Sequence record: PP534475.1
DNA from: Escherichia phage YJin-2024a
Length of the DNA stretch: 64,000 nucleotides
Direction: 5' to 3' (one strand)
Of this stretch, positions 7,084-23,115 are shown piece by piece. Numbering within the stretch: the stretch's first letter is position 1; each line of letters opens with the position of its first letter. A model generated the notes under the pieces. It had not been told where the DNA came from, made no database searches, and was given only the letters and a program-made list of their open reading frames with translations. A program made the translations under genes and the position numbers.

Positions 7084-8400
7084 TTATTTACCACGGGAAA
7101 TAGAGTAAATTCCGTAGCGCAGAGCATCACAAAGGTGAGAGTTAGCATCATGACGTGGTTTTTCACGTGATAATTTTTCTTCACCTTCTTGGAAATCCCA
7201 CTTATAGTTCTGCAATGCATGGATTAATGAGGAACATGAAGCATCTACAATAATCTTACCTTGCTGGAATAGTGCTTGTAAACATGCTAGACCGTCTAGG
7301 ACAGACTTTTTAGCTGGGGCTGATGCAATTTCATGCTCATAAGCTAAGTCCTGACGGAACTGAGCTGCGGCAGAGTCAACAAAAACACGATCAACTTTAT
7401 AACGATCTATACAGTGCTGAATGTAAGCAGCATGCTGAGCTGTAGTTTTCTCCGCTTGCTGGTACTCCTCTAATACATAGTAAGTATCCGTATCGTAATG
7501 ATATTTAATAGTAAGAACTGCTGTAGGATCACGATAACCCACGTCAATGCCAAGCAATGTTTCAAAGGCTTCATCATCTTTAAAGAAGTGACGCATACCT
7601 TTAAGGTCTTTAACATGATCAATAGCATTAAAGGTATCGAAGATCTGACCTTCGAATACAGAGAAGTCAGCCTCGTATTCTTGGCGGAAGTAGTTTTTAC
7701 TAACAGTACGACGTGCTTCTTCGATATCATTCAGATCAGCACGTGGATTATCACGATATGTACCATGAATAGACACCCAGTTAGGCAACGTATCGTCAAA
7801 CCCATAGGCATAAAACTCTTTAAACCAGTTACCACCACGAGGAGTAGAGATAAATAGAGCCTTAGAGTTTGGTTTATCTAGGGTAGGGCGCAACTGAACT
7901 CTAAAGGCATCACCACCTACATCGGAAATTGCCGCCTCGTCAAAGATGATAAAGTCATATGAACGTCCAACTGCGGAGTCAGCCTGCGCCGCGGAAGCTA
8001 GTTTAAACAGTGAGCCGTTTGCCAGCTCAATCTCTTTATCTTTAGCGTTCTCACGTTCGGTTTGTAGGCCATACTTCTTAATGAGACCACGAATCTGAGA
8101 CCATCCGATGTTGGCCAGTGAATAGTTAGGAGCAACTACTAACACCTTCACGTTAGGTTCCAATAACTTTAGGAACCCAAGTGTGTATGCGATGAAGGAT
8201 TTACCTACACGGCGTGATACACACGCCGTTACAAAACGATGTCTAGGGTCCTCTAGAGCATTAATAATTGCTATTTGAGGACCATTAGGTGTTATACCTT
8301 CTTGTGCTAGTATTCCCGAAACAGGTAGACGAAAGAAACGTTTATCTATTCCGAAATCAATAACATCTACCGTATTAACGTAGGGTCTTGATACTTCCAT
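7084..8400 (-). CDS. terminase large subunit
   Basis: 438 aa; VGKSF Walker A-like N-terminal ATPase region and acidic nuclease region; upstream of portal. Confidence 0.85.
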   Translation of the reverse strand: MEVSRPYVNTVDVIDFGIDKRFFRLPVSGILAQEGITPNGPQIAIINALEDPRHRFVTACVSRRVGKSFIAYTLGFLKLLEPNVKVLVVAPNYSLANIGWSQIRGLIKKYGLQTERENAKDKEIELANGSLFKLASAAQADSAVGRSYDFIIFDEAAISDVGGDAFRVQLRPTLDKPNSKALFISTPRGGNWFKEFYAYGFDDTLPNWVSIHGTYRDNPRADLNDIEEARRTVSKNYFRQEYEADFSVFEGQIFDTFNAIDHVKDLKGMRHFFKDDEAFETLLGIDVGYRDPTAVLTIKYHYDTDTYYVLEEYQQAEKTTAQHAAYIQHCIDRYKVDRVFVDSAAAQFRQDLAYEHEIASAPAKKSVLDGLACLQALFQQGKIIVDASCSSLIHALQNYKWDFQEGEEKLSREKPRHDANSHLCDALRYGIYSISRGK

Positions 8401-8882
8401 TACTTCTTACCTCCAGTAGCTAGGGAAGTAATTAAGTCCATGTAGTTTTGATCCCCAGCTCCAGCAATAATATTGTTCTGGATATTGGTCTGGTTAGCTG
8501 GAGTACGGGCTGCTGCTTTCACTTTCTCCAACTCTACCATCATTTTCATTTCTTCCATTTTCATTTTATGTGCTTTCCAGAGAATATCCATAATATCCTG
8601 GTCAGAACCCATGCCAGTCTCTTCTAGTTCTTCCAGCTTACGTTTAATAACTTCATCTAGAACACCAAATAAACGATCCCTATTACGGAAACCACTTTCC
8701 ATAAAAATATCATTTAAGTAGTTCTTAACTTCACTACGATTCATAATATCTCGAAAAGCAATTTCGGACATTCCAAGGCTACGTGCGGCAGAAGGCACAT
8801 CGCTACCGCACTGTAAATAAGCTTCAATCACATCCATCCCTTCAGGGGACATAAGATCTGGTACTAATACATCATTTGCCAT
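8400..8882 (-). CDS. putative terminase small subunit / HTH DNA-binding protein
   Basis: 160 aa; helix-turn-helix-like [16 protein letters not shown]; TAATG overlap with the terminase large subunit start. Confidence 0.45.
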
Positions 8883-8892
8883 ATTTCCTCCT

Positions 8893-10680
8893 TTAGGTAA
8901 GGCGTTGAACTGTTACTCTTAATCTTGGTAGGAAAATAGCTGCAGCCTCATCTGCATGAATAATTACGCCCAATTCAGCATTACCATTTCCTAGATTTTT
9001 AATAGTATAAATATATCCGTTTCTTCTAAATGTTAACTCATCAGGTCTACTTGCCCAAGTTTGAGTATAACTATATGCAGTAGTGGAGTGATAAGGGACT
9101 AAGTATCCAGGAGGTAAGGTTAATATTTGATGGAATATTCCATCACCTTCCGTGTAACTATGCTGTCTTCTTCCTTGTACTTGCCAAGCAGCACCACCGT
9201 ATGTGCGTATGGCTCCTCCAGCCGTATTAATATTACCCATAATAACTTCCGTAGTTAATATTACCGTTGCGTTAGCGTTAGGCAATCCTAATCCTATGGT
9301 GGCCAAAGCTCTATAGTAGTTGCCTGCTCCAGGATACGCGGGGGTTATATCATCACCAACGTAGGTGCTAGCAACATTATTAGGAAATAGTCTTAAAGGT
9401 ACAGTACTAGGACTCCACACAGCTCCATGCTCATTACCGATAGTGTTATTACTTGAGTTTACGTACCATTGCTTACCTGCTCCGAATTTGTAAATACTGA
9501 TTTGAGACTTGGCTCCTCCATAATCTACAGGAGACCATAAAGATCCATTACTAGATCCTACAATTTCACATCTTGCAGTGGTATCCCCGAAGGCTCCAGT
9601 GTACGCTGCGTTATTTCCAATGTACTCCATATCTGGCCTATAGCCTAAGTTACCAAAAGCATTTTGGTTGATAAACTTATATCCAGTATTTGGTAAACTA
9701 ACCCCTTTTATAGTAAAATTAGATGGAGTTATAAGTATATCTGACCCAGTAAATGGATTACCAGATACACCCATATTACCATTAGAGTACCTTAGATTAA
9801 GTACATACCAAATAACCTTAGTAGGAGTTATGTTATACCAATCCTGCACATACACTTTCTTAGCGGCCTGTGCTGCTAGATTAGATGTTGAACCTTTACA
9901 TATATAAACCTTATCAGGATACGTAGGAGATTGGTATAATAAGTTAACATTAGCTGGTACTGTGCCCTTTTTACCTACGTAACCTCGTATATTAGAGTTA
10001 CAAACATAGAACCAATTATGCCCCCTATGGGCGGCCCCTATAGGAGCTTGCCAATTAGGATGCCAGTAGTCAGCATTACCACCGTCTATAGGTACTGTAG
10101 ATGCTCCTGCTGGAAATCCTGCTAAAGTCCATGCCCTACCTATAGCCTCACCAGCATATGCTCCTCCCGGCCTATATAAATTAAACCCGGAGGCTTGAGA
10201 TATGGTACCACCTGTACCCTGCCTAGCAATTGATTCTTCATGGCCTAAACCAGAGTTATAAATATAGGTGCCATGTGCTAAACTATTACCTGATGCAAAA
10301 GCTGACGTAAGACCTACTTCTGCACCTGCCCTACCAATAGGCGGATCTTCAAAAAATGCAGTAAATTGACCAACTTGAGACTGAGTACCATTAAGAAAAG
10401 CCCTATGAGTACCATTAATCTCAATAGCAGTTAGTATAACTCTACCTGGGTCATTGGATTTAATATTTATTATGTCAGAGGGCATCTGACATACAAAAAA
10501 CCCATTTCCAGCATTTCCTAATCCAGCCTCATAAGTGCCATCAACTAGGACAAATGGCATATCACTATGAAAAATACTATTGGCATTTGGACTATAATGA
10601 CGATTAATGTCACCACCAGATTCAGTATTTAAAGATAGTACGGTCTTACCATCGCTATATTTTCCAGCGAAAAAACCCAT
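8893..10680 (-). CDS. receptor-binding tail protein (pb5/Oad-like) or tail fibre
   Basis: 595 aa, Gly/Asn/Tyr-rich; last late gene before the repeat region; divergent lipoprotein gene next to it, as recalled for T5 oad-llp. Confidence 0.5.
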
Positions 10681-10705
10681 ATAATCTCCTATTATAAAAA
10701 TGTAT

Positions 10706-10734
10706 TTGCTTTCATCCCTCTATTTTGCTATAAT
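10706..10734 (+). promoter_or_regulatory. sigma70 promoter, near-identical to T5 PN25 (TTGCTT-17-TATAAT)
   Basis: aaaaatgtatTTGCTTtcatccctctattttgcTATAATagattcataaatt matches the PN25 core as I recall it. Confidence 0.75.
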
Positions 10735-10765
10735 AGATTCATAAATTAGAAATGGAGAGATAAAT

Positions 10766-11032
10766 ATGAAAAAGTTTGTGATTGCACTAGTTGCCGCAGT
10801 TATGTTATCTGGTTGTGCACCCGCTCCCAAACCATTTTGTACTGGATTTGTAAAATCTTTTGGTGGTGCGGGAGAAGAACATTACGGTCTCAAGATTCAA
10901 AAAGTTCGTATTAAGGGAGATCGCTTCCCAGTAGTACAGCTCCGTACTAAGTTTGGGTGGTGGGATCTCAGTCAGTTTGACCTTAAATATGGTGATTGTA
11001 AATTTAAACTAGAGCAATCTAACTACCTGTAA
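10766..11032 (+). CDS. lipoprotein, candidate Llp-like receptor-blocking (lytic conversion) protein
   Basis: Signal peptide with lipobox MLSGC; 88 aa; divergent from the receptor-binding protein gene. Confidence 0.55.
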   Translation: MKKFVIALVAAVMLSGCAPAPKPFCTGFVKSFGGAGEEHYGLKIQKVRIKGDRFPVVQLRTKFGWWDLSQFDLKYGDCKFKLEQSNYL

Positions 11033-11145
11033 TTAGTATAAAGCAAAAAGACATCCAAGTAAACTAAATTTTTTATTTCTTGAATGGTATATTGGCAGAA
11101 ACCACTATGTAAGAAAAGTAGAAGTCCTTCTAGGAAGTCACAAGC

Positions 11146-11328
11146 ATGGTTGGTTATGCACATATTTTAAAATATCATATTTATTGGAGCATGAAAGATA
11201 TGTCAAACAAAAGAAAGAATAGACGCGGAGAAGTGTATGATAGCTGGATAAATAGTTTTGGGTTCGGAACTATCTTATTCTTTATTTTCGTAGGTTTTTG
11301 GTTAGCAGCTATGGCGGGGTGGATTTAA
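11146..11328 (+). CDS. small membrane protein
   Basis: 60 aa; C-terminal hydrophobic helix; first of four overlapping small ORFs. Confidence 0.4.
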   Translation: MVGYAHILKYHIYWSMKDMSNKRKNRRGEVYDSWINSFGFGTILFFIFVGFWLAAMAGWI

Positions 11329-11435
11329 TGGAATGGGTAATTATTACACTACTGGGGATTGTGATTATTGGGCAGTGTATTTTAGATAATCATCTAGCTA
11401 GAATTGAAACCTTACTATCGGAGAAACGTAAATGA
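11328..11435 (+). CDS. small membrane peptide (35 aa)
   Basis: TAATG overlap with the upstream ORF; single TM helix; not in the ORF track (too short). Confidence 0.3.
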   Translation: MEWVIITLLGIVIIGQCILDNHLARIETLLSEKRK

Positions 11436-11626
11436 TGGAAGTGGCAGTTACACTAATAGTAATATTAGTCTGGGTAATCCTCATTGTCTCTCGTATCGTG
11501 TATCTCCGCCTAAAAACTCTAGAAGCTCAGGTGAAACAACAACAAGTTACTATAGAAAAGCTAGTACTACTGCAACGTTGTGATAGCACCCGTATTCTGC
11601 AAATTGAGAGGGAATTAGATGTTTAG
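11432..11626 (+). CDS. small membrane protein with coiled-coil tail
   Basis: ATGA overlap with the upstream ORF; N-terminal TM helix. Confidence 0.4.
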   Translation: MMEVAVTLIVILVWVILIVSRIVYLRLKTLEAQVKQQQVTIEKLVLLQRCDSTRILQIERELDV

Positions 11627-11864
11627 TATTGTAATTGCTTTTATTATCGGGATACTCGCGGGAGTTTTCGGGACGACTGCGGCAATCAACAAGCATCGGG
11701 AATATATTGTGGGAGTGACGCGAGAGATTGCGGAAAGGGAGCGGAAGTTTGACGAGAAACGTGCGGAGTTTGAGCGGGAGTGGTCGGATGGATCTCGGGC
11801 GTCGCGGAAGAGATTCCGTGAGTTCAGACCAGAACACAGGTTTGATGACCCTTCTATGCGCTAA
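11619..11864 (+). CDS. small membrane-anchored protein, Arg/Glu-rich tail
   Basis: 81 aa; N-terminal TM helix; overlaps the upstream ORF. Confidence 0.4.
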   Translation: MFSIVIAFIIGILAGVFGTTAAINKHREYIVGVTREIAERERKFDEKRAEFEREWSDGSRASRKRFREFRPEHRFDDPSMR

Positions 11865-12015
11865 TTTGACTTTTGCCAAATTTCATAAGATTACACATGG
11901 AGGTGTGCCCAGTGGCCTCCCGGATGAGAATGCGTCTCATTACCGCCCGGTACTTAGCAGACTAATAGTCACGGCATGTTATCATTGCACACCGTGACTA
12001 TTTCAATTTTAATTA

Positions 12016-12750
12016 TTATGCGACTTTTAGTTTCTCAATATATTGTTGCGGGCTGCAACTATATTCCGCGCGTTCTTCCTCGGTCATACTTTCCCAGCAT
12101 AACTTCAATCGATCGGCTAGAAATTGATAATCATTATCATCGTCGAGAGATTCATCAATAAAGGTTCCGCCTATCAATGCCACGCCGATGGATAGAATAT
12201 CATTAACGGCTTGCGCATCTAGCGTTTTAAATCCGTATGACGCCGCCGCTGATAATACACCTTTATGATCATCAATCATTGTAAAATCAGCGTTCGGATA
12301 TAGTTGCTTGAATAGCTCAAAGTAATGGCTTTTATATATATCGTCCTTGCTGTGGTATATCTCGCTAACCTTATCAGCCGTAAAATATTTGTGAAGTGTA
12401 TCGCGGGAAAACACGCGGATATTAGTATCCCCACGCCCGCGCAATCCTTGTTTGCGTAGGAAGTAATAATCTGACTTGCTCATCAGTCGAGCGGTACAAA
12501 TAATGTTTAAAGTGTTTGCGTCATTCATGCACTGGCGCATATATTCCACCAATGGCAATAAGGTATCTTGCATAATTAAATCATGCTTGCAAGCCTCATT
12601 TTTATACTTATTTAAATCTAAATTACCCTCGCTATCAAAGCAAGGTGCTACACGATGGAACGAATTAATGATTGTGCCATCAAGATCCCAGATCATGACA
12701 CGGGAAATATGCGGGAAATTACGGGTAATATTCGTTTTAACTTGATTCAT
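12016..12750 (-). CDS. dmp: 5'-deoxyribonucleotidase (HAD superfamily), Dmp-like
   Basis: HAD motif I WDLDGTI; start placed at the internal Met with GGAGA RBS (244 aa). Confidence 0.7.
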   Translation of the reverse strand: MNQVKTNITRNFPHISRVMIWDLDGTIINSFHRVAPCFDSEGNLDLNKYKNEACKHDLIMQDTLLPLVEYMRQCMNDANTLNIICTARLMSKSDYYFLRKQGLRGRGDTNIRVFSRDTLHKYFTADKVSEIYHSKDDIYKSHYFELFKQLYPNADFTMIDDHKGVLSAAASYGFKTLDAQAVNDILSIGVALIGGTFIDESLDDDNDYQFLADRLKLCWESMTEEERAEYSCSPQQYIEKLKVA

Positions 12751-12830
12751 TTTGTTACGTTCTCCATTAAAGGGATTTAGTTTATCCAGCATTACCCGCT
12801 ATTTATAAGCGGGTAATAATAAATCAACTA

Positions 12831-13223
12831 TTAAAGACCATAAGCCAACGCATCAGCGATGAAGCTAATATCTTCGCCGGATACATGAGAACGAATACCA
12901 GCGCAAGTATACACCTTTGCGCTCGTTAGCTGATCATCAAAGCAAGCTGGACAAGGCGCGACAACTGCAAACGCTAGGCCAGCTTTTACGGCGTCGATGA
13001 TAATCGTTTCCTGCTTCACCGTATCAACATAAACGCCTGCGGCCTTGATGTGACTACTTGCGCGGCCTTGAGTATAGGCAAAGGTAGTAACCTGCAAAGC
13101 GTCATTGAAGTCTAATAATTCATCAATAACGTGCCCCGCCTCAACGTGGTAACGTTCACCATTAGAATAAACCAGAACGATTGAGGATTGAGCGCGATCG
13201 AATGGAATATTTTGCTTTTTCAT
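12831..13223 (-). CDS. hypothetical protein (130 aa)
   Basis: ORF with conserved pre-early leader upstream; contains PCPAC motif but no convincing family assignment. Confidence 0.5.
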   Translation of the reverse strand: MKKQNIPFDRAQSSIVLVYSNGERYHVEAGHVIDELLDFNDALQVTTFAYTQGRASSHIKAAGVYVDTVKQETIIIDAVKAGLAFAVVAPCPACFDDQLTSAKVYTCAGIRSHVSGEDISFIADALAYGL

Positions 13224-13288
13224 GTTTATAACTCCAATTAATTTAATAAGGGATATAAGCGAGGTATATACCCCGCTTATAAAGTTAA

Positions 13289-14959
13289 TTATGCGAAAAA
13301 TTTGCCGTTTTTAAAGTCAATCAAAGTGCGCTGACCGTTCGCATAGGTAATTAAATGCGTTTGCGTCCAGCTTGACGCGCCAACGTTGTAACCCATATCG
13401 AGGGAACCAGCAACGCCCGCGGTATATACACCGCCGTAAATGCTTGCCGTATGCGTATGCCCCGTGTTTAACTTGCCCAATTTTTTAAATTGCTTCGGAT
13501 TGCCACGGCTGCCGTTAATGCCGTTGTGACCGTGTACGCCGCATTCAATGCCTGCAATTTTAAATGATTGGTCAGTCGTTAGGAAAATTGCGTTAAACTC
13601 GCAACCTGCAACCGTACGCAGCGCATAATCTAGCACGTTGAAAGTATCGTCATGATTACCGATTGCCGCGTAAATCGCAGCATTAAGGCGGTGATACAGT
13701 TCCGCGTTGGCTGGATCGTCTTTAATGTTAGCATTGCGATCATCAAGCCAACGAGAAAGCGCCAAATCGTGGTTTGATTCCACAATGATTGTTTGACTAA
13801 AATCACGTTCCATTGATTCCAGCACGCGCCCGGTGTCGATCAGATCATCAATAACCTTATCACGTCCGGCTGCATACTGTTTCGCTAGAAATACACCAGA
13901 CGCGCGGTTGTGATGGTTGCGTGATGTAAAATCATGCACGTCATGGACGAATTGATATTTTGGTTTGAGAATATCCACTAGCCCATAAGTATCACCGTGA
14001 CCCCATGACGCAGCGGCGCACTCCTCGTCTAATTTTTCGGCGTGAATATCGCCATATTGCAAGCCTAAAACATGCCCCGTTGTTTCAAAGCATCCGGTGG
14101 GAGTAGCGCAAACGTTCAGATCGTAAAACATGCCGCTTTCGTCCATTGTTTCAAGCTGGCGCACAAAAAACTCACCGTCTTCGTCGAACTCAACAATCAG
14201 CGCACCGTAATTATGCAATGCTTCCGCTTTTTGCCCTGCTTTCTGCTGAATGTAGTTTTTAAGCGTTGCCGTTCCGGTTGAATACATGCGGCGTACTACT
14301 TCACCTTTGAGAGCTGGGACGCTTTCGGCGGTGATTTTAGCGTGACCAATTGCCAGACCTTCAAGATTAAGCGCCGTTGCAGTTTCTGCAAATCCAGATA
14401 GCGGGTAATCTGCGGTGGGCAAAACATTAATTTCAGCCATGAAAGCGAAACGGCGGTTATTTAAAAACACGTTTTTGCTGCAAATATATTTATCAAATGC
14501 GGAATCATATTTTACACCGTCTGCGCCTTCACCATTTTGAAAGCCGTTTTTGTTATAAATATACTTAGAAACAAGCAAATCAGCGCCGATAAATTGGGCA
14601 TATTGTTCAAGCGAGGCTAAAAAGTTTTTATGAGGGAAAGTATTATTCTGAATCGATGTAATAATAAAGCGTTTGCCTTGTTTTACTTCCCACTGTTCAA
14701 CCGTGCTGGAAATAATTCCAGCCGCTTCGGGGCGCTCGTCGTTTTTAATGGCTTTTACAGCTTTCGCCGCTTTTGGTTTCGCTGGTTTATTTGCTTCTAA
14801 CCAATCGCAAATTGCGGTCGAGTGCTTCGTTGTGTCATATACCGCTTTAGAAATATCGTCACAAACTTCCAGCTTGGTGGCGCGCAGACGTTTACCGTAG
14901 AAATTAAAGTCAGCGGCCAGTTTCAGGATAACGGTTTGTTTTTCTGCGGAAAAAATCAT
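13289..14959 (-). CDS. A1: A1-like pre-early protein, calcineurin-like metallophosphoesterase
   Basis: GDIHA, GHGDTYG, SNHD and GHTH phosphoesterase motifs; 556 aa from the internal Met, the length I recall for T5 A1. Confidence 0.75.
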   Translation of the reverse strand: MIFSAEKQTVILKLAADFNFYGKRLRATKLEVCDDISKAVYDTTKHSTAICDWLEANKPAKPKAAKAVKAIKNDERPEAAGIISSTVEQWEVKQGKRFIITSIQNNTFPHKNFLASLEQYAQFIGADLLVSKYIYNKNGFQNGEGADGVKYDSAFDKYICSKNVFLNNRRFAFMAEINVLPTADYPLSGFAETATALNLEGLAIGHAKITAESVPALKGEVVRRMYSTGTATLKNYIQQKAGQKAEALHNYGALIVEFDEDGEFFVRQLETMDESGMFYDLNVCATPTGCFETTGHVLGLQYGDIHAEKLDEECAAASWGHGDTYGLVDILKPKYQFVHDVHDFTSRNHHNRASGVFLAKQYAAGRDKVIDDLIDTGRVLESMERDFSQTIIVESNHDLALSRWLDDRNANIKDDPANAELYHRLNAAIYAAIGNHDDTFNVLDYALRTVAGCEFNAIFLTTDQSFKIAGIECGVHGHNGINGSRGNPKQFKKLGKLNTGHTHTASIYGGVYTAGVAGSLDMGYNVGASSWTQTHLITYANGQRTLIDFKNGKFFA

Positions 14960-15048
14960 AATAATAAACTCCATTAAAGGGACTAGGTTAATAATGGCAA
15001 TGTTGCCAAATATAACGCCTTGAATAATAGGCGTTATAATTTGCAACA

Positions 15049-15246
15049 TTAATTTAAAGGCATCAGGCTAGAACTAACACCACAAACAATGGCAGCAATA
15101 AAACAAATCAGACCTAAACGCTTTGCCAATATTGATTTACGTTTAAAATAATACGAATCTAAATCATTTTGAAAATATGCGAACAATAATGAAGCCGCCA
15201 TAATAAATAAGCCTAGAATGAGCGATTCAGTGGGGTAAAAGATCAT
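15049..15246 (-). CDS. small membrane protein
   Basis: Hydrophobic 65 aa; start placed at the ATG preceded by the conserved pre-early leader (the ORF track begins at an upstream GTG). Confidence 0.4.
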   Translation of the reverse strand: MIFYPTESLILGLFIMAASLLFAYFQNDLDSYYFKRKSILAKRLGLICFIAAIVCGVSSSLMPLN

Positions 15247-15303
15247 TTTAATAACTCCAATTAAAGGGAAATTATAGTGGGGAATAATCCCCACTAGTTA
15301 AAT

Positions 15304-15711
15304 TTATTCACCTGCGGCCTGTTTTACCTCATCGGCAACGCCTAGCAGTTGCGCCACGGCGTCCAACGTTTCTAATTTTGCGCTTTCCAGTGATGCCAGA
15401 TCATCGGCGTCCTTGATAATGCCGGAATCAATAGCGTGTTTTGCAATTACTCGCACATAGTGAGCTTTACGGATTGAACTACCGCCGCCAACTTTGCGCG
15501 GCTTGTCGCTTTTCTGGTAGGCTTTCGCGCTGGTCAATTTCGAACGAACTGACACGGGAGAAGTAGCGCCCACTGCCTTTGCGATCTCTTTCAAGCCGTC
15601 GCTATTTGCAAAATCTAGCCCGTTTTCATTGATTAGTTGCTGATACATGGAAACAGCCTGCTGGGTGTTTTCTTCGTTCCAGGAAAATTTTGCGGTTTTT
15701 GCGTTAGTCAT
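15304..15711 (-). CDS. A2: A2-like pre-early protein
   Basis: 135 aa, basic C-terminal half; immediately downstream of A1; conserved leader upstream. Confidence 0.55.
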   Translation of the reverse strand: MTNAKTAKFSWNEENTQQAVSMYQQLINENGLDFANSDGLKEIAKAVGATSPVSVRSKLTSAKAYQKSDKPRKVGGGSSIRKAHYVRVIAKHAIDSGIIKDADDLASLESAKLETLDAVAQLLGVADEVKQAAGE

Positions 15712-15811
15712 GATATAAACTCCAATTAATTTAATTTAAGGGATTAAATGATTAACTAATGTTAATCGTTATATACCCCAAACTATCGGGGCATATAAAG
15801 TTAACACTAAT

Positions 15812-16063
15812 TTATAAAACGGCTTCCCATTTTTCGTTGCGTTGAACAACCTTTACAACGTCGCCGGATTTAACGCGAACGTTATAAATCGGCTTGCCGC
15901 TGTTACTGCGTTCTGTTTCAGCGTATACCGCGTCAATTGTATCGAACGGCATGAGCGCCGCGCCTTTAATACGTTCGGCTTTTCCGGTTAATTCGTCCGT
16001 TTTAGTAACGAAAGGAATAAAAACGGATTGACCAATTTTTGGCGCGGTAATAACGTTTTGCAT
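15812..16063 (-). CDS. hypothetical protein (83 aa)
   Basis: ORF with partial conserved leader upstream. Confidence 0.4.
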   Translation of the reverse strand: MQNVITAPKIGQSVFIPFVTKTDELTGKAERIKGAALMPFDTIDAVYAETERSNSGKPIYNVRVKSGDVVKVVQRNEKWEAVL

Positions 16064-16293
16064 AATATAAACTCCTGTTTATTTGCTGGATTGTTCCGCA
16101 TTACCTGCTAGAAAATAACAGGTAATAAGAAAAAATCCGCTCGCCATTGTAAAATCAATTTAAGGAACTCCACGAAGGCCGCTATATCCCAGTTAGGGGG
16201 CGGGGCACATTATGGCAAGTACCGGCCGTCAGATTTTATCAAGTTATCGCTCTTATCGAACTGGGTATATCTTAAAGCCTACCGGCTAGGTTG

Positions 16294-16497
16294 TCAAATA
16301 GTTTTTTGCGCTTTTTTATGATTTTCCTTCAGGTCAATCATAATGTTTCGCCAGATCATTTCTAGTCCTTGCTGGCGGCCTTTCTTGTACTGCTCAAATC
16401 GATATTTTACCGATCTTTGCGCTACTGTCAATAAATTTTTTGTTTTGCTATCCAGTGCCTTGCTAGGTTTACCAGTGATCAATAAAGTTTGTTTCAT
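16294..16497 (-). CDS. hypothetical basic protein (67 aa)
   Basis: ORF only. Confidence 0.3.
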   Translation of the reverse strand: MKQTLLITGKPSKALDSKTKNLLTVAQRSVKYRFEQYKKGRQQGLEMIWRNIMIDLKENHKKAQKTI

Positions 16498-17187
16498 ATC
16501 GTCGATTCCTTATAATGAATAAGTTTACCGCCGATAGGCTTTAAGATATACCCAATTTTTAAAGAGCGCGGCGGTAAACTTCCCGCCGTGTAGTTCGTCA
16601 TTGCCGCCCTACGAGATAAATAATAACAAACAACGAAAAAGGCGCAACCTTATATTTGTAAAGAAATGTAAAGACAAACGCCACCGGACACCGTGCGGCG
16701 ACCTGGGCGCAGCGCATTAAAATTAAAAGAAACGGGCGCGCGAATAACACAAAACATAGCAGATAGGCAAGTGATTTTTTCATTTATATTTGCTTTGGGG
16801 GTATTGACAAAATCTAAAAAGCTCGTGGCAGCGATAAACGGCTTATCCCTTTATGATTGGATGGCTAAAAACTTTATCGCGTTCTGGGGCGTTTTAGGCC
16901 GCCTATTTTCGACTTAACAAATCATTAACAAACGCAAAATTGAAAAATAGTTGGAAAAGGTCTTGACTTTTAAAAATCAAGGGGCGTTGCGTTAATTTAT
17001 TAAATAAAATATTTGACTTTTATTTGTTAGTATGCATCGGAAAGATAGCAGACTAATAATTGCTAGGATGATAATCATGCTGGTGGATTGTAACGGCCTG
17101 AATTATTAGCAGACTATTAATCACGGAAAATCTCATTAGCCAACTAACTATTTCATGATATATAATATACTTATAAATTAATGAGAA

Positions 17188-17270
17188 ATAATAACAATAA
17201 GAAATCATCACCATTATAATAATAACAATAAGAAATCATCACCAATATAATAATAACTATAAGAAACTAT
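17188..17270. repeat. tandem ~30 bp repeat, about 2.8 copies
   Basis: ataataacaataagaaatcatcacca repeated head-to-tail. Confidence 0.7.
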
Positions 17271-17280
17271 CGGCCTAAGT

Positions 17281-17410
17281 GAGAACCACTATCATTTAAG
17301 TTATCCACAACGTTTTCCACAGCACAAAATAACTTGACACGATAGGCGGCGATATGAGGGCTTTTACACATACTTATCCACAGGTTATCCTACTGTATAA
17401 ATATACAGGG
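17281..17410. repeat. inverted repeat arm A with DnaA-box motifs
   Basis: Two perfect TTATCCACA boxes (about 17301 and 17375); reverse complement matches 19575..19710. Confidence 0.75.
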
Positions 17411-17643
17411 TAGAAAGACAGTGTTAACGACTGCAATCAATTTTAAGCGGCTTAAAACGCTTTCTAACGAGCTGAAGGCTGCGGGGTAATATTAAAGTAA
17501 AGCCTCAATGCGTCGCCCTGGTGGCTTCGCCGTGTTTTGCTCTTTATTACACCGCTGCGCGGTTAGCATAAAAATAGGCGTTAGGCAAGAAAAAATTTAC
17601 CAATAACACCGAAAACGAGTAATAACTAGCCTATTGTAAAGTT

Positions 17644-17684
17644 TTGTAAAGGTCGCCTTTTATGGTGGCCTTTTTTGTTATAAT
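17644..17684 (+). promoter_or_regulatory. candidate promoter with extended -10 (TGTTATAAT)
   Basis: tgtTATAAT at 17677-17684, about 25 nt before the first plus-strand ORF. Confidence 0.35.
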
Positions 17685-17707
17685 GCCTTTACACCGTTTG
17701 AGGACGG

Positions 17708-17971
17708 TTGAAAATTTTCCCAAAAATTTGGAGGCTTAAAATGGTTGCTTTTTCTTCTTCTGACGCTCTTTTCACTGGTAAAGGCTGGGTATCAAATCGC
17801 TGGATTATTCAGGAAATGGTGCAAGAATACGGCATTGCTAAAACTTATACTACCATTCAGGCGCTTTATGATAATGATCAAATCGATCAGCAAACAGCGG
17901 GCTTTTTACTGGATACCCTGAAGGCGGAACACTGTACCAAAAAACAAGCCGCCAAAATTGTTTTAATGTAA
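17708..17971 (+). CDS. hypothetical protein (87 aa)
   Basis: GGAGG RBS; first gene of the plus-strand module. Confidence 0.5.
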   Translation: MKIFPKIWRLKMVAFSSSDALFTGKGWVSNRWIIQEMVQEYGIAKTYTTIQALYDNDQIDQQTAGFLLDTLKAEHCTKKQAAKIVLM

Positions 17972-18021
17972 TTAATAACGGGGCGATACTTTCGCCCCCA
18001 CTAACTAGGGGAGTATTAAAA

Positions 18022-18171
18022 ATGGTTATTTTTCGAGCTATTCTGGCGGGTATCTTGGGCGCTATTTTATCTTTGTTTGCAATAGCTTTCGACGTTCACG
18101 CGGTTATTATAGGCGCGGGTATCGCTGTATTTTCTTATCTGCTGGGCTGCATGAATAGTAAAGGAGAATAA
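18022..18171 (+). CDS. small membrane peptide (49 aa)
   Basis: GGGGAG RBS; hydrophobic throughout; not in the ORF track. Confidence 0.35.
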   Translation: MVIFRAILAGILGAILSLFAIAFDVHAVIIGAGIAVFSYLLGCMNSKGE

Positions 18172-18173
18172 AA

Positions 18174-18386
18174 ATGATCCGCAACGTTTCTCTTGCACGT
18201 TCGAAAGGTTTTAAGCTGGTGGACGCTAACACGTTCGAGCGTCCAGATTGTAAAATCGAATATGTAGCACGTAATAAAAATGCCTTTCGTGTTACCGAGA
18301 AAAAATTTGATAAGCGCGGCAACGTGATCCTTGAAACGGTTAGGCACTTTGCCACCTTTTACGCTGCATTTCGTGGGGTACTATGA
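18174..18386 (+). CDS. hypothetical protein (70 aa)
   Basis: AAGGAG RBS immediately upstream. Confidence 0.5.
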   Translation: MIRNVSLARSKGFKLVDANTFERPDCKIEYVARNKNAFRVTEKKFDKRGNVILETVRHFATFYAAFRGVL

Positions 18387-18508
18387 AAAGCGTTATTGTT
18401 GTTCTCCTTGCAATGGCTGGCGGTTTTATCGCCACCTTATTTAAGAATGATCCTCTTTCATTGGGGATCTTTATGTTATTATCAGGCTATCTGATCGGGA
18501 GGTTATAA
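18383..18508 (+). CDS. small membrane peptide (41 aa)
   Basis: ATGA overlap with the upstream ORF; hydrophobic. Confidence 0.35.
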   Translation: MKSVIVVLLAMAGGFIATLFKNDPLSLGIFMLLSGYLIGRL

Positions 18509-18509
18509 A

Positions 18510-18854
18510 ATGGTTATTTATGAGGGCAACCGTTTTGTTGCTAACTGCCGCCCGGCATTGTTAGCAAACTATTTGAACCAGCTTTCGCCAGCTTATAAGG
18601 GCGTTATTAATATTTATGAGGGCAAGGCGCATTATAAAATCAATGCGGTCGTTGCCCGTGAACTAGCGTTTCAATTTTTGACCTTTGCATCTTGCGACGT
18701 TCAGGTTATGGGTGAGGCATTAATCGCAGAAAATGAAGACGATTTTATTAATATTTTCCGTAAGGTGTGCACCGAGCGCCTGATAATGAAAGGCGCGTAT
18801 ATTCAATCCACGGCTGATAGTATTGAAACAGCGTTTCGAAAAATAGGTAAATAA
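18510..18854 (+). CDS. hypothetical protein (114 aa)
   Basis: GGGAGG RBS; largest ORF of the module. Confidence 0.5.
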   Translation: MVIYEGNRFVANCRPALLANYLNQLSPAYKGVINIYEGKAHYKINAVVARELAFQFLTFASCDVQVMGEALIAENEDDFINIFRKVCTERLIMKGAYIQSTADSIETAFRKIGK

Positions 18855-18855
18855 T

Positions 18856-19017
18856 ATGGCTGTTTATATTGCTTTGCTAGGATATGCGTTATCCCTTATT
18901 GTTGGTATGGTTATTTATAGCGCAATCGGCAATATTGTGTTATCCCTTGTTGTCTGCACTATATTAGGGCAGTTTTGCGGAATGTTCGTTATATATAAAT
19001 TAATGCAAGGAAAATAA
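18856..19017 (+). CDS. small membrane peptide (53 aa)
   Basis: Starts 2 nt after the upstream stop; hydrophobic. Confidence 0.35.
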   Translation: MAVYIALLGYALSLIVGMVIYSAIGNIVLSLVVCTILGQFCGMFVIYKLMQGK

Positions 19018-19127
19018 TACTAATGAGATTATATATTTTCGTTGGTAATGCTAGGGCAGCTAATGATTCCGCTGGTGGCGATAACGTTCGCCACTATTGG
19101 CAAAAATATATTTACTAGGGCATTATT

Positions 19128-19322
19128 ATGAGCAATAAAATTATTGTAACCAAAACTAGTACAATGGTTGATATTTTTTACGTGCCCGATACGCCGGAAA
19201 ACCGACAAGCGGTTGAGCGTGGGGAATATGATAAAGTGATCTATGATCACGATGGTTATTATCAGTATTTGGTGGATTCATATGGGGAGGAGGAAAAAAT
19301 CACGCATCGACTACCCGACTAA
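19128..19322 (+). CDS. hypothetical acidic protein (64 aa)
   Basis: ORF with upstream ATG context. Confidence 0.4.
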   Translation: MSNKIIVTKTSTMVDIFYVPDTPENRQAVERGEYDKVIYDHDGYYQYLVDSYGEEEKITHRLPD

Positions 19323-19365
19323 TAATCACGGGGCGCAACTATCCGGAAGTGCCCCCAATTTTCAA

Positions 19366-19384
19366 ATGATAATCATTCTCATTT
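19366..19384. promoter_or_regulatory. palindromic site AATGATAATCATTCTCATT (full-site version of the half-site repeat downstream)
   Basis: Near-perfect dyad built from the AATGAGAAT half-site. Confidence 0.5.
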
Positions 19385-19574
19385 GACCGCGCCCGCGATG
19401 GTTAGCCTGCTAATGGTTAGGGTGTTACGTGTCGCCTTGTGTGATCGTTAGCGGGCTAACTAATTTTCAAGCCTCCTCCAATTTTGCCCTTGTTTTAGTA
19501 CCTCCAACAAAATTAAACGCGTTAGAATGCGTTTGAGGGCGTTTTAACGCTATATTAGAACTATTCACTGCGTA

Positions 19575-19710
19575 GGAATACTGTATATTTATACAGTAGG
19601 ATAAGCTGTGGATAAGTCTGTTGATAACGCCTCAAAATGGCTAGGATTTTGTCAAGTCAAATCGTGCTGTTGATAAGTCTGTGAATAACTTAAATAACAG
19701 TGTTTCTCAC
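19575..19710. repeat. inverted repeat arm B with DnaA-box motifs
   Basis: Reverse complement aligns with 17281..17410 over about 130 bp; TGTGGATAA at about 19607. Confidence 0.75.
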
Positions 19711-19719
19711 TTCCATTCT

Positions 19720-19937
19720 TAAATGAGAATCATTATCGTTCGCATTCCGCTTTTTAAATGAGAATCGTTTCACTTCTTAAATGAGAATCATTCCGCTTTT
19801 TAAATGCGAATCATTATCATTTGCATTCCACTTCTTAAATGAGAATCATTCCGCTTTTTAAATGAGATTGATTCTCGTTTCACTTTCTAAATGCGAATTA
19901 TTATCATTCTCATTCCGCTTTTTAAATGAGAATGATT
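19720..19937 (+). repeat. array of 8 direct repeats TAAATG(A/C)GAAT(C/G)ATT
   Basis: Copies at about 19720, 19755, 19778, 19801, 19836, 19859, 19888, 19923. Confidence 0.8.
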
Positions 19938-19983
19938 CTTATTATCATTCGTATTTAGCGCAGGGCAATTGCCCTGCGCTTTT

Positions 19984-20583
19984 GTGCAAATCCGACATTG
20001 CTCCACGGGTGTTACGTGCGGGTGTATGTGCAAATCCGACAGGATTTTTGGTAGTGTGCAAATCCGACCCGAAAAATTTTTATAGTGTGCAAATCCGACA
20101 ATGAATTTTCCCAAAAACTCCAGCAATCTCGAACTGCGTTCGAATCCTGTGGGGTATGTGCAAATCCGACATGGTTTTTCTAGGATTAAGATGTGCGAAT
20201 CCGACAAGATTTTTATGACTTCGATTGGAGGGTGTGTGATTATGTGAGTTTGGGGAGAAGATGAGAGAGTGAGAGAAACTTGGGGGAACTGTGGGAGAGG
20301 CGCATGTTTGGTGCGGAGCACCCGATTTGCGGGGATTTTGGGGAAGAGTTGAGAAGATTTGGGTTAATTTGAGATTAGTGGAGATAAAGTAAAATTTTAT
20401 TAGCAAAATGGGGCAAAATAGCTTGACAAGTGAAAATTTCTGTGGCTCTAAAAACTCAGGTAAACATGGGCCTTCGGCCCGAAATAATGCTGCTATTTTC
20501 ATGAGATTATATGTTCCTAAAAACTTAGGCAATTGTGCAAATCCGACCATAAATTTCTAGAAACACAATGTGCAAATCCGACA
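19984..20583 (+). repeat. array of 8 direct repeats GTGCAAATCCGAC(A/C)
   Basis: Copies at about 19984, 20028, 20056, 20087, 20158, 20193, 20535, 20570, each followed by a short T-rich tract. Confidence 0.8.
20226..20400 (+). repeat. purine-rich block with several G4-5 tracts, almost no C on the plus strand
   Basis: gggagaag, tgggggaac, gcggggatt, ttggggaag within about 170 nt. Confidence 0.6.
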
Positions 20584-21118
20584 ATAAAATCCAGAAATGT
20601 GTTTTCAAAAAATGTCTCCTAGAAATAACCGCCCTCCCCATAACCGCCCTGTATTAAACCGCCTAGTATATGTTCCTAGAAACTTAGGAGAACCGCCCAC
20701 TAGAAGTATGATATCTCGTGAGAACTCTGGAGTTTCTAGGAAAGTGTTGTGCCATCCTAGCAGATGAGTGGCAACCGGTGTATCATCTTGAATGTAAATT
20801 ATGTGGACAAAAGTTTTACCTTTTATTTAAATAAAAGATCCCCAGGGTTCTCATATAGAGCTTTGCCCCCGCCAGAAGGTCTCGTGGTGTTTCTAGCAAT
20901 TTATATTAAATTACTTATTAACTTGTCCTGTCGCTCCGTATCCTCCGCTACAAGTTAGTAATTTTAAATTACTGAACCACCACACCTTCTGTGTGGCAAC
21001 TCTAAATGGTTAATTCTATTAACTCATAGAGTTATGATAACATACATTTAGCTATCTGTCAACGAGAGTTTGTATTTGAGTCTCGGTACAGGTATTGTGC
21101 ACCGAGACATGCAGGATC

Positions 21119-22003
21119 TTACAGTAACTCTTGGTATGCTTTTTGATACGCCTCAGTGTCAGTAGGTGTACCTTTTGCTAGTGCAATTAATTCATCTGTT
21201 ATCTGAATATTCGTATTATAACGTGTGTGGAACTCGTTAGGAATTTCTAGGTATCTATTGATGAATGCTGCAGCAAGCGGTGTGACTAAACCAATCTCTA
21301 GAGATAGCTTAACTTGTTTTTCGTAGATTAAATATTGAGAATCAGATGGGATTGGTTGGGTTACGTCAGTTTTCTCCGGTTCTTTTTCTGGAAGCAATGG
21401 ATTATTATATAATGCTTCATCTGGAAGCACAGATTTACGCTCTTTAAATATATAAGTTTCTAGATCCGATGCTTTAGATCCTGAGTATACCGCAAAGACG
21501 CTAGCTTTACCCTGGGATGCCCTAACTGGTAAATAACTAGTAGGATAGCTTCTTAATGCATCATGGAATGGACTTCCTGAGTACTTGTACGTATCCCCAT
21601 AGAGATCATCAATATTCATTCGTTCATCTTCAAAAATGTGAAAAGAGCTAAATGATGGGATAGTAAAGTATTCCATCTGTAACCCATAAACTAAGAAACG
21701 GTGTGCATATGCGCTAATCTTTAAGACTGTGAATGCTTTTTCACCTTCCTTATAAGAATTGCCCTTTGAAGTAACTTGATAACGTTTACAAAACATCTCT
21801 ACTAGACGTTTCTCATTAATATTAAGGGTGGAGTACAGTCGTCCACTTAATCCTATAAGTGCATCGAACATAAATGCTAGTTTATCTTTTTCTTCCTGAG
21901 ATAGTTCTGGAAACGGTAATACTTTCGCATTAGGAACATTATTGTTCTCTTTAGGTTTTGTTTTACCAGCATTTTGTCTTAGTTTATCTTTAAAGTTATA
22001 CAT
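21119..22003 (-). CDS. hypothetical early protein (294 aa)
   Basis: ATG with GGGAG RBS; first gene after the repeat region. Confidence 0.6.
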   Translation of the reverse strand: MYNFKDKLRQNAGKTKPKENNNVPNAKVLPFPELSQEEKDKLAFMFDALIGLSGRLYSTLNINEKRLVEMFCKRYQVTSKGNSYKEGEKAFTVLKISAYAHRFLVYGLQMEYFTIPSFSSFHIFEDERMNIDDLYGDTYKYSGSPFHDALRSYPTSYLPVRASQGKASVFAVYSGSKASDLETYIFKERKSVLPDEALYNNPLLPEKEPEKTDVTQPIPSDSQYLIYEKQVKLSLEIGLVTPLAAAFINRYLEIPNEFHTRYNTNIQITDELIALAKGTPTDTEAYQKAYQELL

Positions 22004-22082
22004 TATTATCTCCCGTTTTTAAGGTCTGGATGACCTTCTTTTTATTTTAGAGCCTCCGTAGAGGCTCATGTATTAGGAATTA

Positions 22083-22685: not shown

Positions 22686-22870
22686 TATTTATTCTCCAGT
22701 TTGTCTAACAGTTTATGGGCTGCGATGTTATATTGTTTAAGTTCACTATTAAGGATTTGGTTCTCACTCTTTAGCTCTAGATTCTTATTATTAAGAATAC
22801 TGCAGATTAGTAGAAGTGCTAGTATAACCAGCAAGGAGCCTACGAGCATTAAAAGAAAAAGAGTTTCCAT
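22685..22870 (-). CDS. small membrane protein
   Basis: 61 aa; N-terminal TM helix plus coiled coil. Confidence 0.4.
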   Translation of the reverse strand: METLFLLMLVGSLLVILALLLICSILNNKNLELKSENQILNSELKQYNIAAHKLLDKLENK

Positions 22871-23115
22871 TATTTAACTCCCATGTAACGTTTGGGATAC
22901 ACAATGAAGTCTTCTGCTGTATGCGCTGTGCTACCTTGAGCTACGAATAGCTTGAGAGCTTCACGTTGTAGTTTTAGACCCGCTACCTCACCGCGTAATT
23001 TTACTAGATCTTCTGCTAGTTCTCTAGCTCTACGCATAATAGCAAAAGATACAAGTACTACGATGAATAACATAACTACTAAAATAATTGCTATGATTTC
23101 CATATTAACATCCAA
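22870..23115 (-). CDS. small membrane protein
   Basis: 81 aa; N-terminal TM helix plus coiled coil. Confidence 0.4.
   Translation of the reverse strand: MDVNMEIIAIILVVMLFIVVLVSFAIMRRARELAEDLVKLRGEVAGLKLQREALKLFVAQGSTAHTAEDFIVYPKRYMGVK

What the first reader, a model, noticed from the sequence alone, without database searches (positions are those of the whole stretch)
10700..21110. Late-to-early junction looks like a single collapsed terminal repeat carrying the pre-early genes
Between the last late gene (ends 10680) and the first early gene (starts about 22003) lie dmp-, A1- and A2-like genes followed by repeat-dense non-coding DNA. That is the content and order I recall for the T5 terminal repeat, including the repeat-rich first-step-transfer stop region. 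In a linear T5-type genome this block is present at both ends, so its appearance once between late and early genes implies a circularised or collapsed assembly, with physical ends expected near 10.7 kb and 20.7-21.1 kb.
Basis: inference. Interest (0 to 1): 0.5.

Follow-up and report, generated by a model that had tools for sequence, protein, structure and literature searches.

The report
Collapsed T5-type terminal repeat, ends refined

Summary
The window comes from a T5-like phage (Tequintavirus). The repeat-dense non-coding DNA is the homologue of the T5 injection-stop (iss) region.

One copy of this block joins the right-end unique genes (pb5, llp, T5.159-162 homologues) to the left-end unique genes (T5.018 homologue onward). 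In T5-type virion DNA that can only happen if the two terminal repeats are merged into one. The collapsed or circularised reading is therefore supported by comparison. Read data to prove it are not available.

The proposed physical ends are wrong. The ends of T5 (as deposited), BF23 (read termini), Elw, NBEco002 and NBSal005 all map to window 11906/11907 and 20448. Read-depth boundaries in chee24 fall just inside these. The repeat is 8,542-8,543 bp. The 1.2 kb at 10.7-11.9 kb (llp plus four small membrane-protein genes) and the 0.66 kb at 20.45-21.1 kb are unique DNA.

The small terminase subunit is 160/160 identical to T5's, so T5-type packaging is expected. This is known biology and a known assembly outcome, so interest is low.

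The parts
8893..10680 (-). pb5/oad receptor-binding tail protein, the last late gene; left flank, not part of the repeat
   Evidence: PHROG 4815, E 1.9e-282. Only 30% aa identity to T5 pb5. Same length (595 aa) as BF23 oad.
10766..11032 (+). llp-type receptor-blocking lipoprotein; unique right-end DNA, not repeat
   Evidence: Cor/lipoprotein families. 87/88 aa identical to the BF23 receptor-blocking protein. In T5 and BF23 this gene lies outside the right terminal repeat.
11200..11864 (+). Four small membrane-protein genes, homologues of T5.159-T5.162; unique right-end DNA
   Evidence: tblastn 77-95% aa identity to T5.159-162. PHROGs 8596, 5851 and 6447. They match only the right end of T5.
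11907..20448 (.). Inferred single copy of the long direct terminal repeat (8,542 bp; 8,543 bp if it starts at 11906 as in the T5 record)
   Evidence: The left ends of the T5, BF23, Elw, NBEco002 and NBSal005 records align to 11906/11907, and their right ends to 20448. BF23 ends came from PhageTerm. chee24 read-depth boundaries fall just inside, at about 12000 and 20242.
12016..12750 (-). dmp, deoxynucleoside-5'-monophosphatase; its stop codon is 109 bp from the inferred left end
   Evidence: 94.7% aa identity to T5 dmp over 244 aa. In Elw and NBEco002 dmp sits 109 bp from the record start, and in T5 and BF23 122-123 bp.
12831..13223 (-). T5.002 homologue, function unknown
   Evidence: 87% aa identity; PHROG 4576.
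13289..14959 (-). A1, the pre-early protein needed for host DNA degradation and second-step transfer
   Evidence: 95.3% aa identity to T5 A1 over 556 aa. PHROG 1745 'DNA transfer protein', E 5e-244. Function taken from the papers read.
15049..15246 (-). T5.005 homologue, a small membrane protein
   Evidence: 95.4% aa identity; PHROG 4820.
15304..15711 (-). A2, a DNA-binding protein needed with A1 for second-step transfer
   Evidence: 97.8% aa identity to T5 A2; PHROG 1725.
15812..16601 (-). T5.007, T5.008 and T5.009 homologues (15812-16063, 16294-16497, 16497-16601)
   Evidence: 84-94% aa identity; DUF7177 and DUF7416.
17187..17266 (+). 31-nt tandem repeat, 2.6 copies, in the central repeat region (R1/R2 of T5)
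17277..17408 (+). Left arm of the long inverted repeat (IRC-spacer-IRD of T5). It carries two pairs of consensus DnaA boxes at 17301/17313 and 17362/17374.
   Evidence: 132 nt, 77% complementary to 19581-19712. Boxes located. Layout as described by Davison.
17741..19322 (+). Rightward pre-early gene block: T5.012, .013, .014, .015 and .017 homologues. T5.016 is reduced to its first 19 codons, and the T5.011 homologue is absent (gap at 17594/17596).
   Evidence: tblastn; PHROGs; gap seen.
19318..20378 (+). Homologue of the T5 injection stop signal (iss) region, untranslated
   Evidence: The T5 iss feature 9140-10149 maps here through the alignments. No ORF in it has a family match.
19581..19712 (+). 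Right arm of the long inverted repeat (IRD'-spacer-IRC'). It carries two pairs of DnaA or DnaA-like boxes at 19607/19619 and 19668/19680, with 3-bp gaps within pairs and 61 bp between pairs.
19716..19950 (+). Array of TTAAATGAGAATCATT-containing repeats (periods of 23, 35 and 81 nt; the DRE/DRC region of T5)
19960..19981 (-). Palindrome GCGCAGGGCAATTGCCCTGCGC. It contains the homologue of the T5 major single-strand interruption, inferred between 19979 and 19980 on the minus strand, 8,073 nt from the left end.
   Evidence: The T5 feature at 9748^9749 aligned by eye to the window using the sequences. The physical nick was not tested.
19983..20582 (+). Eight same-strand copies of TGTGCAAATCCGAC (DRD), six inside the repeat and two beyond its end
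   Evidence: 8 copies against 0.21 expected. Their offsets from the repeat end are the same within 8 bp in T5 and BF23.
20449..21118 (.). Unique non-coding DNA at the left end of the unique region; not repeat
   Evidence: It aligns to T5 10220-10935, which lies outside the T5 repeat, and the right-end records stop at 20448.
21119..22003 (-). T5.018 homologue, the first early gene; right flank
   Evidence: 95.9% aa identity; PHROG 8583.
7084..8882 (-). Terminase large (7084-8400) and small (8400-8882) subunits, the enzymes that would cut at the repeat ends
   Evidence: TerS is 160/160 aa identical to T5.156. TerL is 436/438 identical to Elw and Kenya-K16, and its first 145 aa are identical to T5's. 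PHROGs.

Best explanation
Window 11907-20448 (8.5 kb) is the one retained copy of the long direct terminal repeat of a T5-like phage. In the virion this segment should be present at both ends of a linear genome. Here the two copies are merged, so the right-end unique genes (pb5, llp, T5.159-162 homologues) run through the repeat into the left-end unique genes (T5.018 homologue onward).

How it works is inferred from T5. The left copy enters the cell first. Entry pauses at the untranslated iss region (19.3-20.4 kb). That region holds paired DnaA boxes in a long inverted repeat, tandem repeats, a conserved nick site and a DRD array. Host RNA polymerase then expresses the pre-early genes. A1 degrades host DNA, dmp dephosphorylates the released nucleotides, and A1 plus A2 allow the rest of the genome to enter. 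The two repeats later recombine, giving circles or concatemers with one repeat per unit. Terminase cuts at 11906/11907 and 20448/20449 and restores two copies on packaging.

Shown here: gene homology, order and strand; the repeat anatomy; and where relatives' ends map. Inferred: duplication in this phage's virions, the exact cut sites, the nick, and every functional step.
For: 1. Identity. There are 546 matching phage records, nearly all T5-like. dmp, A1 and A2 are 95-98% aa identical to T5.
2. Flanks. Window 11163-11905 aligns only to the T5 right end, and 20449-23163 only to the T5 left end. The repeat aligns to both.
3. Ends. T5, Elw, NBEco002, NBSal005 and BF23 all start at the position homologous to 11906/11907 and stop at 20448. 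BF23's ends were set from read termini by PhageTerm. chee24's repeats were set from read depth above 130% and fall just inside, at about 12000 and 20242.
4. End sequences. The roughly 40 bp around each end are nearly identical to these relatives.
5. Packaging enzymes. TerS is 160/160 identical to T5's and TerL is 436/438 identical to Elw's.
6. iss anatomy matches the conserved plan described for 25 T5-like phages. It has eight DnaA-type boxes in two arms, the DRD array, and extends past the repeat end as in T5.
7. The length of 8.5 kb lies within the known range of 8,081-12,854 bp.
8. Single-copy deposits are common. In one search, 527 records gave 686 places, so at most about 30% hold a second copy. 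Davison notes that assemblers mishandle these repeats.
9. Replicating T5 circles one repeat shorter than virion DNA have been reported.
Against: No reads, depth or termini are available for this sequence, so duplication in its virions is not shown. The source contig could not be found.

Some relatives annotate different ends. Kenya-K16 ends at the homologue of 19695, Kenya-K37 at 20419, and both start 16-20 bp inside 11907. How the NB and Elw ends were set is not known to me, and they may have been trimmed by homology to T5.

One paper read a single-copy T5-like genome (phiLLS) as headful and circularly permuted.
Confidence: 0.9

Rival explanations
1. The phage has a circularly permuted genome packaged by the headful mechanism, with no fixed ends. 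The single copy between late and early genes would then be the true arrangement, not a collapse.
For: The phiLLS paper drew this conclusion for a single-copy T5-like genome that is about 88% identical to this region. Its evidence was a terminase tree and submolar restriction fragments.
Against: TerS is identical to T5's and TerL is 99.5% identical to that of a phage deposited with both repeats. The sequences at both T5/BF23 cut sites are conserved here. BF23 and chee24 read data show fixed ends and raised depth. Submolar fragments in T5-like DNA can also arise by breakage at pre-existing nicks.
Confidence: 0.03
2. A terminal repeat exists but spans the reader's coordinates (about 10.7 kb to 20.7-21.1 kb). 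llp and the four small genes would then be duplicated at both ends.
For: The intergenic gaps after pb5 (10681-10765) and before the T5.018 homologue (20449-21118) are plausible places for a boundary. The DRD repeats do run to 20582.
Against: In T5, BF23 and Elw the llp-to-T5.162 block occurs only at the right end, and the DNA after the 20448 homologue only at the left end. No relative examined has ends near those positions.
Confidence: 0.03
3. The one-copy junction is not an assembler artefact. It reflects real intracellular DNA, either replicating circles or concatemers with one repeat per unit, or a deliberate circular presentation by the depositor.
For: Electron microscopy of replicating T5 found circles one repeat shorter than virion DNA. 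Two relatives with both repeats are even labelled 'circular' in their records.
Against: The sequence is the same under either origin, so the window cannot discriminate. Phage genomes are normally sequenced from virions, where the collapse happens in assembly.
Confidence: 0.05

Closest known systems
Terminal repeat / first-step-transfer region of Escherichia phage T5 (AY543070, 1-10219 and 111532-121750)
   Same: Same gene order and strands: dmp, T5.002, A1, T5.005, A2 and T5.007-009 leftward, then T5.012-017 rightward. Same three repeat regions, the same iss layout, the same nick-site sequence and the same end sequences. Nucleotide identity is about 85-87% throughout, including the non-coding part.
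   Different: It is 1.7 kb shorter. It lacks T5.003, the HNH endonuclease hegG and T5.011, and T5.016 is truncated. It has 8 rather than 9-10 DRD copies. All four boxes in the left arm match the DnaA consensus, whereas T5 has lost one box. Only one copy is present in the sequence.
Terminal repeat of phage BF23 (OR083247, 9,743 bp, ends set by PhageTerm)
   Same: The ends map to the same homologous positions. DRD offsets match within 2 bp. The adjacent receptor module is the same type, with llp 87/88 aa identical.
   Different: BF23 keeps homologues of the roughly 1-kb T5.011 gene and a 495-bp ORF that the window lacks.
Single-copy (collapsed or permuted) GenBank records of T5-like phages, e.g. 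Salmonella phage vB_SalS_ABTNLsp9 (MW149275, 109,695 bp)
   Same: The same late | repeat | early arrangement lies in the interior of the record. This is the closest nucleotide match to the region, at 93.4%.
   Different: ABTNLsp9 keeps the T5.011 homologue and differs from the window at 20844-22082.
Phage DT57C, the smallest reported T5-like terminal repeat (8,081 bp)
   Same: A short repeat produced by loss of dispensable pre-early genes, including T5p010/011.
   Different: DT57C also lacks T5p008/009, which the window keeps. I did not align DT57C here.

Membership tests
T5-type long terminal repeat / first-step-transfer (FST) region (Tequintavirus, Markadamsvirinae) | dmp, A1 and A2 occur in that order, transcribed leftward, at the left end of the repeat | tested here: met
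   95-98% aa identity to T5, same order and strand. The dmp stop is 109 bp from the inferred end, as in Elw and NBEco002.
T5-type long terminal repeat / first-step-transfer (FST) region (Tequintavirus, Markadamsvirinae) | A large untranslated iss region lies at the right end. It has IRD'-spacer-IRC' and its distant inverted partner, paired DnaA-type boxes, and DRE and DRD repeats that overrun the repeat end. | tested here: met
   132-nt inverted repeat 17277-17408 / 19581-19712. Eight boxes in four pairs with 3-bp gaps. Eight DRD copies, two beyond 20448. Layout as described.
T5-type long terminal repeat / first-step-transfer (FST) region (Tequintavirus, Markadamsvirinae) | The flanks are the right-end unique genes (oad, llp, small membrane proteins) on one side and the left-end early genes (T5.018 onward) on the other | tested here: met
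T5-type long terminal repeat / first-step-transfer (FST) region (Tequintavirus, Markadamsvirinae) | Conserved terminal sequences at the positions where relatives' virion DNA begins and ends | tested here: met
   Alignments with the ends of T5, BF23, Elw, NBEco002 and NBSal005.
T5-type long terminal repeat / first-step-transfer (FST) region (Tequintavirus, Markadamsvirinae) | The segment is physically present as a direct repeat at both ends of the virion DNA | not testable with these tools
   Only one copy occurs in the 64-kb window. No reads are available and the source contig was not found.
T5-type long terminal repeat / first-step-transfer (FST) region (Tequintavirus, Markadamsvirinae) | A site-specific single-strand interruption in the minus strand lies near the iss (the '7.9%' nick of T5) | not testable with these tools
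   The sequence context is conserved (CCCTGCGC^TTTTGTGCAAATCCGAC), but a nick is a physical property of virion DNA.
T5-type long terminal repeat / first-step-transfer (FST) region (Tequintavirus, Markadamsvirinae) | DNA entry pauses at the iss, and A1 and A2 are required for second-step transfer | not testable with these tools
   This is a functional property, known for T5 and BF23 only from the literature.
Collapsed terminal repeat in an assembly | Both unique ends are joined through a single repeat copy in the interior of the sequence | tested here: met
Collapsed terminal repeat in an assembly | About twofold read depth over the repeat, with read termini piled at its borders | not testable with these tools
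   No read data are available. In relatives this was seen for chee24 (depth) and BF23 (PhageTerm).
Headful-packaged, circularly permuted genome (considered and rejected) | The terminase is related to pac/headful terminases, and no conserved fixed-end sequences are present | tested here: not met
   TerS is identical to T5's and TerL is 99.5% identical to that of a phage deposited with two repeats. Fixed-end sequences are conserved.

The most novel reading that the evidence does not exclude
The DRD 14-mer array may not be part of the injection stop at all. It may instead be the platform that positions the terminase for the right-hand cut that defines the repeat.

Eight same-strand copies of TGTGCAAATCCGAC keep almost fixed offsets from the repeat end in the window, T5 and BF23. 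The offsets are about -466, -421, -394, -363, -290 and -257, then +86 and +121. The cut falls in the conserved 328-bp gap between copies 6 and 7, and the conserved nick site lies 3 bp before copy 1.

Nothing here tests binding, and the fixed geometry could equally serve the injection stop.
Probability: 0.1. Interest if true: 0.45.

Novelty: already known. Interest (0 to 1): 0.12.

Why it matters
The value is mainly practical.
- The true genome of this phage should be about 8.5 kb longer than a one-copy assembly suggests.
- Its gene map should start at 11907 and end with a second copy finishing at 20448.
- Anyone annotating it or engineering it should treat dmp, A1, A2 and the other repeat genes as two-copy loci.

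It also adds one more natural example of a short repeat that lacks hegG, T5.003 and T5.011. That fits recent genetics showing most pre-early genes are dispensable. It does not change what is known about T5 biology.

Tried and rejected
1. I looked for the source contig to check its length and topology. An exact 45-mer across the left junction was absent from the viral, metagenome and genome collections. Exact A1 (two start choices) and dmp proteins were not on record. No GenBank phage record matches at near-identity: the best is 93.4% over the repeat and 98.7-99.2% in the early region.
2. I looked for a motif shared by the two cut sites. Within 60 bp of the two ends, only chance-level 7-mers are shared in the window, T5 and BF23.
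3. An Rfam scan of 10000-22500 gave only a sub-threshold CrcZ hit (23 bits against a gathering score of 95) on the A-rich 31-nt tandem repeat. I treated it as chance.
4. The consensus promoter and terminator scan gave counts close to shuffled expectation (40 against 33.9, and 16 against 11.2). I did not use it to map pre-early promoters.
5. The long ORFs inside the iss region (144, 156 and 80 aa) have no family match, so I treated them as spurious.
6. A literature search for the T5 nicking enzyme gave nothing usable.
7. The Kenya-K16, Kenya-K37 and chee24 end annotations differ from the consensus. chee24's were set by a depth threshold. The Kenya method is unknown to me. I did not use them to fix the ends.

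Full report
**What the window is.** The region 10000-22500 matches 546 phage records, almost all T5-like phages of Salmonella, Escherichia and Klebsiella. The best match is Salmonella phage vB_SalS_ABTNLsp9 (Tequintavirus), at 93.4% over 90% of the query. No record is the source: the best identities are 93.4% over this region and 98.7-99.2% in the early region. An exact 45-mer and exact proteins were also absent from the other collections.

**Checking the observation.**
- The last late gene is the receptor-binding tail protein at 8893-10680 (-).
- The first early gene is the T5.018 homologue at 21119-22003 (-), 95.9% aa identical.
- Between them, tblastn with every protein annotated in the T5 repeat finds these homologues on the minus strand, in T5 order:
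  - dmp (12016-12750, 94.7%)
  - T5.002
  - A1 (13289-14959, 95.3%)
  - T5.005
  - A2 (15304-15711, 97.8%)
  - T5.007, T5.008 and T5.009
- T5.012, .013, .014, .015 and .017 then follow on the plus strand.
- T5.003, hegG and T5.011 have no homologue. T5.016 is cut to 19 codons.
- From about 19330 to 21118 no ORF has a family match, and the DNA is dense with repeats:
  - eight TGTGCAAATCCGAC copies against 0.21 expected
  - eleven TTAAATGAGAATCATT-like copies here (12 window-wide) against 2.2 expected for the whole window
  - tandem arrays with periods of 23, 35 and 81 nt
  - a 132-nt inverted repeat pairing 17277-17408 with 19581-19712

So the gene calls and the repeat-rich DNA are real.

**Where the repeat really begins and ends.** The T5 record AY543070 annotates the left repeat as 1-10219 and the right repeat as 111532-121750.
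- Window 11163-11905 aligns only to the T5 right end, upstream of the right repeat.
- Window 20449-23163 aligns only to the T5 left end, downstream of the left repeat.
- The last base of T5 aligns to window 20448.
- Base-level alignments put the first base of T5 at window 11906. The first base of Elw, NBEco002, NBSal005 and BF23 is at 11907. The last base of all five is at 20448.

BF23's ends were set from read termini with PhageTerm. chee24's repeats were set as the zone with more than 130% of mean depth. They map to about 12000-20242, just inside the same limits. Kenya-K37 is 16 bp and 29 bp inside. Kenya-K16 ends at the homologue of 19695, and I cannot explain that.

The repeat is therefore 11907-20448, or 8,542 bp. 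That is within the reported range of 8,081-12,854 bp. The extra left-hand DNA holds llp (87/88 aa identical to the BF23 receptor-blocking protein) and the four T5.159-162 homologues. These are single-copy in T5, BF23 and Elw.

**Is it a collapse?** In the virion DNA of T5 and BF23 the pb5-llp side is followed by the right repeat and then the end of the molecule. The T5.018 side is preceded by the left repeat. A sequence that runs pb5-llp -> one repeat -> T5.018 can exist only if the two copies are merged.
- The repeat occurs once in the window.
- The small terminase subunit is 160/160 identical to T5's. The large subunit is 436/438 identical to that of Elw, which was deposited with both repeats.
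- The DNA around both cut sites is nearly identical to these relatives.

T5-type packaging with fixed ends is therefore strongly expected. Single-copy deposits are the majority. In one search, 527 records gave 686 places, so at most about 30% carry a second copy. Davison states that assemblers mishandle these repeats.

The same one-repeat junction also exists in vivo. Replicating T5 circles one repeat shorter than virion DNA have been seen. The sequence alone cannot tell assembly collapse from intracellular DNA. Direct proof needs reads, which I do not have.

**Anatomy of the stop region.** The T5 iss feature (9140-10149) maps to window 19318-20378.
- *DnaA-type boxes.* The right arm of the long inverted repeat carries TTATCCACA/TTATCAACA at 19607/19619 and TTATCAACA/TTATTCACA at 19668/19680. 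The left arm carries four consensus DnaA boxes at 17301/17313 and 17362/17374. Each pair is separated by 3 bp, and pairs are 61 bp apart. Six of the eleven consensus boxes in the 64-kb window lie in these two arms. This is the eight-box plan Davison found in 25 T5-like phages.
- *Nick site.* The T5 major single-strand interruption (9748^9749, minus strand) corresponds to 19979^19980, inside a perfect palindrome GCGCAGGGCAATTGCCCTGCGC.
- *DRD array.* It starts 3 bp later. Its eight copies sit at nearly the same offsets from the repeat end in the window, T5 and BF23, with six inside and two outside.
- *Conservation.* The non-coding DNA is about as conserved against T5 (85%) as the A1 region (86%).

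**How it most likely works.** This is inferred from T5 and BF23 and was not tested here.
1. The left copy is injected first.
2. Entry pauses at the iss. The cause is unknown. Davison proposes that membrane-bound DnaA holds the eight boxes, and the BF23 authors note that this has not been tested.
3. Host polymerase expresses the pre-early genes.
4. A1, a predicted metallophosphatase, is necessary and sufficient for host DNA degradation. dmp dephosphorylates dNMPs. A1 and A2 are the only genes essential for completing transfer.
5. The absence of hegG, T5.003 and T5.011 here fits the finding that 13 of 17 pre-early genes are dispensable.

**Rivals.**
- A headful, circularly permuted genome was claimed for the single-copy relative phiLLS. 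The terminase identity and the conserved fixed-end sequences contradict that reading.

**Verdict.** The finding is real and its core reading is right, but it describes known biology and a known assembly outcome. The useful correction is the position of the ends: 11906/11907 and 20448.

Noticed in passing
window 19983-20582: The eight DRD 14-mers (TGTGCAAATCCGAC) keep nearly fixed offsets from the repeat end in the window, T5 and BF23: about -466, -421, -394, -363, -290 and -257, then +86 and +121. The cut site lies in the gap between copies 6 and 7, and the nick-site homologue lies 3 bp before copy 1.
   Followed up: partly
window 8893-11032: The receptor module is BF23-type rather than T5-type. 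pb5 is only about 30% identical to T5 pb5 and has the BF23 length of 595 aa. The lipoprotein llp is 87/88 identical to the BF23 receptor-blocking protein, which suggests BtuB rather than FhuA as the receptor.
   Followed up: partly
window 17594-17596: There is a clean gap of about 1.06 kb relative to T5, BF23 and the closest relative ABTNLsp9. It removes the T5.011 homologue. hegG and T5.003 are also absent, and T5.016 is reduced to 19 codons.
   Followed up: partly
window 20844-22082: The sequence is mosaic at the repeat/unique border. The closest relative over the repeat (ABTNLsp9, 93-94%) does not align here, yet the encoded T5.018 homologue is 95.9% aa identical to T5. The early region further on is 98.7-99.2% identical to other Salmonella phages (SP33, PHB06).
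   Followed up: no
window 21034-21062 (minus strand): A near-consensus sigma-70-like site (TTGACA, 17-nt spacer, TATCAT, with TG) points from the early-gene side into the non-coding DNA toward the repeat. No gene lies downstream of it and its function is unexplained.
   Followed up: no
window 11955, 17107 and 19312: A 20-21-nt element (TAGCAGACTAATAGTCACGG, 0-3 mismatches) occurs three times, all inside the repeat and all on the plus strand. One is 48 bp from the left end, one is in the central repeat region and one is at the start of the iss region. None is expected by chance.
   Followed up: partly
window 17187-17266: A 31-nt A-rich tandem repeat (2.6 copies, 95% matching) gives a sub-threshold CrcZ hit in Rfam (23 bits against a gathering score of 95), which is very likely chance.
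   Followed up: partly
window 6386-7072 (minus strand): The ORF between the portal and large terminase genes has a weak HNH-endonuclease match. The record for relative Elw labels its homologue 'nicking site-specific endonuclease'. It is a candidate for the enzyme that makes the T5-type nicks, including the one expected at 19979/19980.
   Followed up: partly
window 10700-10765: From memory, the llp promoter region (TTGCTT, 17-nt spacer, TATAAT, then AGATTCATAAAT) closely resembles the T5 PN25 promoter used in pQE-type expression vectors. I did not check this against a reference sequence.
   Followed up: no
window 38270-49918 (minus strand): A cluster of 23 tRNA genes lies in the early region, as is typical of T5-like phages.
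   Followed up: no
L004 (Kenya-K16, OQ291030) right end: This record's annotated terminal repeat ends inside the IRD'-spacer-IRC' inverted repeat, at the homologue of window 19695. That is about 750 bp short of the end seen in T5, BF23, Elw and the NB phages, so it is probably an annotation or assembly artefact in that record.
   Followed up: no
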